From the NCBI RefSeq assembly GCF_004010195.1, contig NC_057719.1:41348522-41389828 (forward strand): a stretch of 41,307 nt of DNA, read 5' to 3'. The position numbers and the translations under genes were made by a program. Below, one piece after another: positions 37,232 through 38,384 of this stretch. This stretch comes from Chiloscyllium plagiosum (Eukaryota). The notes beneath the pieces are model-generated. The model was not told the DNA's origin and ran no database searches. It saw nothing but the letters and a program-made list of their open reading frames with translations. Within the stretch, counting starts at the first letter, position 1. The number at the start of each line of letters is the position of its first letter.

Positions 37232-37429
37232 TGCAGACAGTCAATCCATGTAACATTTTATAAATTCTACTTTAGAAACAGAACCAGTCTGACTCAAGAT
37301 TGGGATACAGACAGACTCTAACCTCACATTTTTAATGGAGAAAGTGAGGTCTGCAGATGCTGGAGATCAAAGTTGAAACTTTATTGCTGGAACAGCACAG
37401 CAGGTCAGGCAGCATCCAGGGAACAGGAG

Positions 37430-37465
37430 ATTCGACGTTTCGGGCACAGGCCCTTCTTCAGGAAT
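37430..37465 (-). ncRNA. Minimal type I hammerhead ribozyme motif (family A), minus copy
   Basis: Exact mirror of 37627-37662. Confidence 0.8.
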
Positions 37466-37626
37466 GAGCAGAGAGTGTTCAGCAGGAGAAGATAAAAGGT
37501 AGGGAGGAGGGACTTGGAGGAGGGGCGTTGGAAATGTGATATGTGATACCTATCACATTTCCAACGCCCCTCCTCCAAGTCCCTCCTCCCTACCTTTTAT
37601 CTTCTCCTGCTGAACACTCTCTGCTC

Positions 37627-37662
37627 ATTCCTGAAGAAGGGCCTGTGCCCGAAACGTCGAAT
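37627..37662 (+). ncRNA. Minimal type I hammerhead ribozyme motif (family A), plus copy
   Basis: ATTC CTGAAGA A GGGC ctgt GCCC GAAA CG TC GAAT: 4-bp stem I, core, 4-bp stem II, loopless palindromic stem III (ACGT), GUC triplet. Confidence 0.8.
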
Positions 37663-38384
37663 CTCCTGTTCCCTGGATGCTGCCTGACCTGCTGTGCTGT
37701 TCCAGCAATAAAGTTTCAACTCACATTTTTAATGCATTGTCTGAGCTGAGATATCACCTTTCTTTATAAAACCTTAAGTTATCTTAAGAATGTGACTTGA
37801 AAGAAGTTCTGGGATTAACAAGTTAATGAACCAAAATCTGCAACCCATTCTAAAAGATGGAAGACTTAACAGCAATCTCGGTTTGTTCAATATATTGTTT
37901 CAGTTGCATGACACTATAGTCTTTTCCAATAAATTATGATTCAGCTCCACAGCCACCCGATGAAGGAGCAGCGCTCTGAAAGCTAGTACTTCCAAATAAA
38001 CCTGTTGGACTATAACCTGGTGTTGTGTGATTTTTAACTTTGTATGCCCCCGTCCAACACCAGCACCTTCACTTCAAGGTTAAAAGCAGGCTAGGTTTAT
38101 TTGCTGATGATAAGATGTAAAGGATTTAGACTTGGAGGCAGTGTCAGCAGCATCTATATTTATAGCTGTGGGACTGTTGGTCTCCAAAATCTCAGGAAGG
38201 TGATGAGAAATGTTGGTTGTAAATTTCAAAGATAAAGCAGAACCAGAGTTCTAATGATAGCTAATCAGCATTTCTACCTGCAAGTGATTCATATTGCCAC
38301 AGAGATAAGTTTTGAAAGGAGAACTTCTCTATTATTCATGGATTCCCAGATAGAATCAGTCCATTAGAACTGGGAGAGATGGGA

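What the first reader, a model, noticed from the sequence alone, without database searches (positions are those of the whole stretch)
37323..37734. Young perfect 171-bp palindrome carrying an intact hammerhead motif on each strand
Best candidate system in the window. Seen: zero-mismatch arms, perfect 15-bp TSD, and ATTC-CUGAAGA-A-GGGC(CUGU)GCCC-GAAA-CG-UC-GAAU on both strands. Across family A copies the stem II loop varies (UUAU, CUGU, UUUU) while the stem is kept. Established: PLE terminal repeats encode minimal HHRs that often need dimerisation. Inference: a transcript from either strand holds an antisense copy followed by a sense ribozyme, so it either forms a long dsRNA hairpin that masks the ribozyme (endo-siRNA or ADAR substrate, possible self-silencing of PLEs) or self-cleaves. 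Several such units in 41 kb suggest a very abundant ribozyme/hairpin class in this genome.
Basis: partly seen in the sequence, partly recalled or inferred. Interest (0 to 1): 0.82.

Follow-up and report, generated by a model that had tools for sequence, protein, structure and literature searches.

The report
Penelope palindromes mark the RNA's start
This perfect hairpin is a real, recent insertion of a very abundant Penelope-like jumping gene, laid down as two head-to-head copies of its ribozyme-bearing end; the ribozymes here are likely idle passengers, but most sister copies stop at one base on the ribozyme's edge, which likely marks where the element's RNA begins.

Summary
Observation confirmed: 171-bp zero-mismatch arms, a 15-bp target duplication and a minimal hammerhead on each strand. 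Inverted copy + tail + duplication is the published insertion unit of endonuclease-bearing Penelope-like elements (PLEs); the family carries RT, a Neptune-type Cys linker and GIY-YIG. It is not a ribozyme/hairpin system: 53 of 83 young sister insertions are such palindromes with differing centres, this centre occurs once in the genome, and each strand holds one dimer-type hammerhead buried in a -378 kcal/mol hairpin.

The unexpected result is at family level. 61 of 136 arm 5' ends fall within 5 nt at the hammerhead's 5' edge, on the A of an initiator-like TCATTCC. A non-element G precedes that A in 1,307 of 2,328 genome-wide cases (6 of 100 at the next base); part of this is microhomology. Ends at the cleavage site are about 15 times rarer. 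A second PLE family shows a similar stop. Inference: RT primes internally near the mRNA's capped 5' end and runs off it, giving strong-stop-like stubs. This window's copy is one of the few long ones. No RNA start or cleavage was seen in reads.

The parts
37323..37337 (.). Left copy of the target-site duplication; its last G is shared with the element's tail end
   Evidence: single copy in 3 paralogous empty host repeats
37338..37370 (-). 33-nt PLE 'tail', present on this arm only; its outer end is the likely second RT start site
   Evidence: tail ends of 90 loci; PMC8557442, PMC11167929
37371..37541 (-). Tail-bearing arm: end of 3' UTR plus pLTR of a young PLE subfamily
37430..37465 (-). Minimal type I hammerhead motif; predicted cut between 37434 and 37433
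   Evidence: mirror of plus copy
37542..37550 (.). Locus-specific joint: TGTGATA repeats 37535-37541 (likely templated insertion during end joining); ACC 37548-37550 is element sequence of the plus arm
   Evidence: unique in genome
37551..37721 (+). Tail-less inverted arm, ending at the fixed pLTR end (q172, likely first RT start site)
   Evidence: same end in 43 of 53 palindromes
37625..37631 (+). Initiator-like TCATTCC; its A (37627) is where most sister copies begin, the inferred capped RNA start (mirror A at 37465 on minus)
   Evidence: Inr consensus recalled
37627..37662 (+). Minimal type I hammerhead motif with palindromic ACGU helix III; predicted cut after 37658
37720..37734 (.). Right copy of the target-site duplication; first CT shared with the arm end
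37240..38076 (+). Host sequence: older family-B PLE 3' region (interrupted by the insertion), with a decayed hammerhead core starting at 37957

Best explanation
The palindrome is one recent insertion of a Penelope-like retrotransposon, made of two head-to-head 5'-truncated copies of its hammerhead-bearing end, likely synthesised from two priming sites on opposite strands of a staggered cut, with ribozymes that are likely inactive passengers. Shown: structure, family identity, locus-specific centres, two fixed 3' ends 33-40 nt apart, and a sharp 5' stop at the hammerhead edge in most sister copies. From the literature: a PLE protein nicks and extends both target strands and starts RT at two internal RNA sites that define the tail (PMC11167929). 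Inferred: the two cDNAs come from one RNA and are joined by microhomology end joining; the common ~215-bp form arises when RT starts at the pLTR near the capped 5' end of the mRNA and runs off it at A37627-equivalent; this window's longer copy would come from a downstream pLTR of a tandem or read-through RNA.
For: Family ORF: RVT_1 E 6.4e-8 and GIY-YIG, contiguous with the same arm in L004. 9,102 exact copies of a tail-spanning 51-mer. Of 83 loci kept (90 examined): 53 palindromic, tail-less end at q172 in 43 of 53, duplication 14-15 nt in 32 of 53, none found in 10. In 26 of 53 the tail-less arm reaches >3 nt further 5' than the tail arm, so neither arm is nested in the other; L004 has ~760 vs 205 nt. 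Solo tail-less insertions with their own duplication exist (L190, L202), so q172 is a priming site. 61 of 136 arm starts at q77-81, 0.154 per nt against 0.0015-0.044 elsewhere. G before A79 1,307, A/T 1,021; G before T80 6 of first 100 listed. Untemplated G is the accepted cap signature for L1 and SVA (PMC4859970). Purine-preceded starts at the cut site 135 against about 2,100 at A79. Family B: 19 of 29 palindromic, 21 of 48 arm starts within 12 nt upstream of CUGA. First ATG after an in-frame stop lies at about q245, downstream of both priming sites.
Against: No RNA pile-up at 37627 or 37659 in 318 poly(A) single-cell reads (low depth, library not built for 5' ends). The G excess is partly microhomology: 20 of 50 G junctions are shared with the partner arm or duplication, only 7 are clean single extra G (8 counted, 1 a point change), and 6 of 40 A/T junctions also scored as a single extra A, though all six are one identical TCAGG-microhomology joint. 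Long arms co-occur (4 of 53 both long, Fisher p 1.7e-5) and two loci share private variants in both arms: this fits one RNA template but fits snap-back copying equally. The assembly has look-alike gap-fill chimeras, and this locus's centre was not confirmed in reads. In the Anolis PLE a single hammerhead cleaved when the PLE protein was added, so monomer inactivity is not guaranteed.
Confidence: 0.75

Rival explanations
1. Self-priming/snap-back: one strand is copied to the RNA 5' end, folds back and is copied again; uneven centres come from later trimming (closest to the self-priming reading of PMC3846280).
For: Arm lengths are coupled (p 1.7e-5); private variants shared by both arms in L154 and L160; templated inserts at centres.
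Against: 26 of 53 non-nested pairs, with up to ~550 nt extra on the tail-less arm in L004; solo tail-less insertions with duplications; both-strand extension and two start sites shown in vitro.
Confidence: 0.2
2. The stop at the hammerhead edge is an RT roadblock (folded or protein-bound ribozyme) or a processed uncapped end, not the transcription start.
For: The stop coincides with helix I in two unrelated families; stop rate already rises from q92 inward; no RNA start seen.
Against: A structural block should act at the 3' edge RT meets first (q114), where the rate is 0.003 per nt; position-specific extra G and Inr-like context.
Confidence: 0.25
3. A functional ribozyme/hairpin unit: selected palindromes that silence PLEs or toggle between dsRNA and self-cleavage.
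For: Predicted 171-bp dsRNA; family RNA on both strands; Penelope is the one other massively edited LINE-class repeat, in lizard (PMC5625713); covariation between families shows past selection on the motif.
Against: Centres are locus-specific and mechanistic; one hammerhead per strand; no reads over this locus's centre; covariation reflects selection on active elements, not on this copy.
Confidence: 0.08
4. Read or assembly fold-back artefact.
For: Short-read-type gaps and duplicated flanks among sister loci; centre not seen in displayed reads or contigs.
Against: Matching duplication at both ends with empty paralogues; one-sided tail at the family's fixed position; unique centre; many distinct fold joints of the family in an independent-assembly run's contigs.
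Confidence: 0.04

Closest known systems
Insertion unit of EN+ Penelope-like elements: inverted 5'-truncated copy, 30-40-bp tail, target duplication (PMC3846280 passages and Discussion; PMC8557442 passages)
   Same: Head-to-head pLTRs, tail on one arm (33 nt), duplication, palindromic junction.
   Different: No ORF between the arms here; duplication 14-15 nt against 8-10 in the rotifer examples; the passages read do not describe a fixed 5' stop.
Minimal hammerheads of metazoan PLE pLTRs (PMC4209133, parts 1-2 of 4)
   Same: Core, extra base between 9 and 10.1, G10.1-C11.1, palindromic 15.2-16.2, no loop III; opposite-strand pairs 100-700 bp apart already noted in Schistosoma.
   Different: Helix II is 4 bp. 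Here the solo/opposite copies are traced to a defined 5' boundary at helix I.
PAc Poseidon of Anolis (PMC11167929, parts 1-2 of 4 and passages)
   Same: Two internal RT start sites defining the tail, both strands extended, uncleaved RNA as template.
   Different: This family has the Neptune-type Cys linker and its ATG lies downstream of the tail; the paper's text does not discuss the transcription start or inverted insertions. Its Fig. S2 could not be read.
Non-LTR retrozymes (bioRxiv 10.64898/2026.07.22.740005, parts 1-3 of 5)
   Same: PLE-pLTR-derived, type I hammerhead, non-coding.
   Different: Retrozymes are direct tandems; this locus is inverted. A 224-bp tandem derivative of the same family exists elsewhere.
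L1 twin priming and cap-derived G (PMC4859970 passages); LTR strong-stop DNA (recalled)
   Same: Two-strand priming giving inversions; extra G at the 5' junction.
   Different: Both primers here start in the same 3'-side region 33-40 nt apart, so the arms overlap into a palindrome; the short product is integrated rather than transferred.

Membership tests
EN+ Penelope-like element | Family encodes RT plus C-terminal GIY-YIG | tested here: met
   P0003 RVT_1 E 6.4e-8 (above cut-off), GIY-YIG 21.2 bits (just under 22.6); P0002 GIY-YIG 23.9 bits (above); ORF end contiguous with the arm in L004
EN+ Penelope-like element | Inverted 5'-truncated copy adjacent at the 5' end | tested here: met
   (53 of 83)
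EN+ Penelope-like element | 30-40-bp tail on one end | tested here: met
   33 nt here; up to about 40 in sisters
EN+ Penelope-like element | Target-site duplication | tested here: met
Neptune clade | CX2-5CxxC linker between RT and EN | tested here: met
   C-X4-C-X2-C in P0002/P0003; feature from PMC8557442
Neptune clade | RT phylogeny groups with Neptune | not tested
   no reference PLE proteins at hand
PLE minimal hammerhead | Core, extra base 9/10.1, G10.1-C11.1, palindromic 15.2-16.2 | tested here: met
PLE minimal hammerhead | Covariation of helices | tested here: met
   Between families: ACGU/AGCU, AUUC-GAAU/CAC-GUG, GGGC-GCCC/GGAGC-GCUCC; helix I is only 2 bp in the older UUAU/UUUU subfamilies
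PLE minimal hammerhead | Self-cleavage | not testable with these tools
   no pile-up at the cut site in 318 reads; double-hammerhead dimer -13.1 kcal/mol is not the cofold minimum (-18.3)
Non-LTR retrozyme | At least two direct tandem units with hammerheads | tested here: not met
   inverted pair at this locus; met only by the 224-bp unit elsewhere
Non-LTR retrozyme | Circular RNA monomers | not testable with these tools
   no suitable RNA data
MITE / fold-back DNA transposon | Symmetric terminal repeats and a fixed unit copied whole | tested here: not met
   one-sided tail, variable centres, unique centre

The most novel reading that the evidence does not exclude
PLE mRNA begins, capped, at the first base of the hammerhead; the enzyme primes 94 and about 130 nt from the cap and integrates strong-stop-like run-off cDNAs from both target strands. 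This would explain why animal genomes hold tens of thousands of solo and palindromic minimal hammerheads, put the ribozyme at the 5' tip of the mRNA where a cut removes the cap (a possible translation or decay switch), and make each long palindrome a divergent promoter pair.
Probability: 0.55. Interest if true: 0.68.

Novelty: new member of a known kind. Interest (0 to 1): 0.42.

Why it matters
The locus itself is ordinary: one of thousands of PLE stubs with a published architecture. What matters is the footprint in its sisters. How PLEs make inverted pLTRs and what their hammerhead does are open questions (PMC8557442, PMC11167929). A base-precise 5' stop with extra G gives a direct prediction for the start site and for two run-off product sizes, testable by CAGE and the existing in vitro assay. 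If right, most 'truncated' PLE copies are complete copies of the RNA's first 94-130 nt, not failed long ones. The palindromes are also a large potential source of perfect dsRNA.

Tried and rejected
Rfam scan: no hammerhead family hit; miRNA hits all under gathering score and rejected as hairpin look-alikes. First DNA search suggested a fixed 5' end at the window's centre; rejected as bias from my query. Insertion polymorphism: Logan contigs of 4 runs showed no empty-site joint and no spanning piece; uninformative because the host is itself a repeat. No RNA holder listed for the stretch. X22 laid 0 reads: no test. A full-length element with its 5' pLTR was not recovered: 12 long-frame candidates were truncated or ran into N. 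Splice-acceptor explanation of the stop: no AG before the A and no constant upstream exon. Cleaved RNA as main template: 135 purine-preceded starts at the cut site, 29 of 30 inspected are joints or small deletions, 9 of them via helix I microhomology; no neighbouring-base control, so a small excess is not excluded. Rows dropped before counts: 4 loci with flanks duplicated from other loci (L087, L161, L167, L171) and 3 next to N (L149, L163, L176); 2 distant older inverted hits (L082, L088) counted as solo; the L083 arm comparison was an indexing error and ignored. L345 dropped (same locus as L344). Literature: 10 searches found no paper describing a cap-G or run-off stop in PLEs; most subscription journals are not held.

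Full report
Coordinates. q counts along the element's sense strand; on the plus arm q = window position minus 37548. Helix I starts at q79 (A37627), CUGAAGA at q83, the predicted cut follows q110, the pLTR ends at q172 and the tail at about q206-213.

Observation. The arms are perfect over 171 bp, with a 9-nt centre and a 15-nt duplication. The hammerhead motif is on both strands. The minus arm carries 33 extra bases (37338-37370). The whole insert folds at -378.2 kcal/mol, z -36; the arm from q79 alone is unremarkable, z -0.17. The target lies in an older PLE family; three paralogues show the 15-mer once. The centre occurs once in 3.56 Gb. I could not confirm it in reads, and some sister loci look like gap-fill chimeras, so a small artefact risk remains.

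Identity. L004 holds the same arm joined to an ORF end with a C-X4-C-X2-C linker and GIY-YIG; L223 adds RT. An inverted truncated copy, a 30-40-bp one-sided tail and a duplication are the described PLE insertion unit (PMC3846280, PMC8557442; passages). Minimal hammerheads in pLTRs, including opposite-strand pairs 100-700 bp apart, are described; the monomer tested was inactive and multimers weak (PMC4209133). One of nine Xenopus dimers cleaved (bioRxiv 10.64898/2026.07.22.740005). That the genome is a shark's is recalled resemblance plus earlier AI notes, not tested.

Abundance. 9,102 exact copies of a 51-mer of this subfamily; 11,497 of a 38-mer of family B; 34 motifs in 611,227 bases against 0-2 in shuffles, roughly 200,000 genome-wide if those stretches are typical (441 kb of them surround the window). 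Helices covary between the two families, which shows selection in active elements, not in this copy.

How the palindromes form. I took the first 90 loci on contig C1 picked only by a 3' pattern and kept 83. 53 have an adjacent inverted tail-less arm; median length 215 bp; the arm ends at q172 in 43; duplications are 14-15 nt in 32. Centres differ. In 26 of 53 the tail-less arm reaches further 5' than the tail arm, and in 11 the reverse, so the arms are often not nested. Solo q79-172 insertions with duplications exist. In vitro, an Anolis PLE nicks and extends both strands and starts RT at two internal sites that define the tail, using uncleaved RNA (PMC11167929). Twin priming and end joining fits best. 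Long arms come in pairs (4 of 53, p 1.7e-5), which points to one RNA but also suits snap-back copying with trimming, the rival.

The 5' stop. 61 of 136 arms start at q77-81, 57 at q82-141 and 18 further upstream. Older subfamilies in the surrounding 441 kb start at similar places (partly confounded by upstream divergence), and an independent run's contigs show many fold joints there, three of eight listed with G before 37627. The modal base is the A of TCATTCC, which matches the initiator consensus (recalled); the Drosophila Penelope start also lies in the pLTR with an Inr (PMC2377424 passages). Genome-wide the letter before that A is C (templated) 7,048, G 1,307, A/T 1,021; before the next base G is 6 of 100 listed. 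Background G is 0.20, A+T 0.59. Classing junctions: of 50 G cases 20 are shared with partner or duplication, 19 follow extra bases, 11 unresolved; of 40 A/T cases 18, 15 and 7. Unshared cases scale to about 760 G against 560 A/T, where background predicts about 1 to 3. Single extra G: 7 clean cases; single extra A: 6, all one recurring microhomology joint. Extra G is read as cap copying in L1 and SVA (PMC4859970). Starts at the cut site are about 15 times rarer. Family B repeats the pattern more loosely: 19 of 29 palindromic, 21 of 48 starts within 12 nt upstream of CUGA. The main ATG lies at about q245. Inference: the mRNA begins with the ribozyme, both priming sites sit in its 5' UTR, and most insertions are run-off copies. 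The window's copy passes q79 on both arms, as do 4 of 53, so it likely came from a downstream pLTR.

Function at this locus. Each strand has one hammerhead whose helix III needs a partner; read-through RNA is predicted to bury it. Poly(A) single-cell reads from the family lie on both strands, none over this centre, with no end pile-up. Penelope editing in lizard (PMC5625713 passage) makes dsRNA handling plausible but not new. I read the hammerheads as passengers.

Novelty. The structure is known. The run-off reading was not found in 10 paper searches or in this scan's notes; the supplement text of PMC11167929 had no matching words and its Fig. S2 on genomic ends could not be seen, and preprint supplements are closed. 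Verdict: new member of a known kind, interest 0.42; the family-level reading has probability about 0.55 and would deserve about 0.68.

Noticed in passing
L170:4146-4369, L135; 40 exact junction matches genome-wide: A 224-bp tandem unit of the same family (q65 through the ORF start) with one fixed junction at many separate places: a retrozyme-like, dimer-capable derivative. Gap-fill copies may inflate the count.
   Followed up: partly
L235-L264; window 36044-36471: Short partial tandems joining the first ~100 nt of the ORF, or an internal ORF stretch, to the 3' UTR or hammerhead edge by microhomology; they look like template jumps.
   Followed up: partly
window 1459-1675: A different 101-bp palindrome, 98% complementary, not of family A; its 15-nt centre is the reverse complement of the right flank, suggesting a templated fold-back.
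   Followed up: no
L078/L087/L167, L138/L161, L073/L171: Separate loci share the same palindrome joint and several hundred bases of flank, abutting ORF fragments: likely gap-filling chimeras in the assembly.
   Followed up: partly
L275, L287-L290, L295: Six loci share one identical joint between q135 and q79, explained by a TCAGG microhomology.
   Followed up: partly
run X9, loose end at window 37335: One contig begins with what looks like a template-switch adapter (recalled) at the tail end in antisense direction; a single contig, possibly strand invasion.
   Followed up: no
q127 onward in L170: An out-of-frame upstream ORF of about 42 codons starts inside the pLTR and overlaps the main ATG.
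   Followed up: no
window 13102-13324, 26761-26981, 7543-7760: Older family-A palindromes of the short type with centres at the hammerhead edge; 13102 and 26761 have clear duplications.
   Followed up: yes
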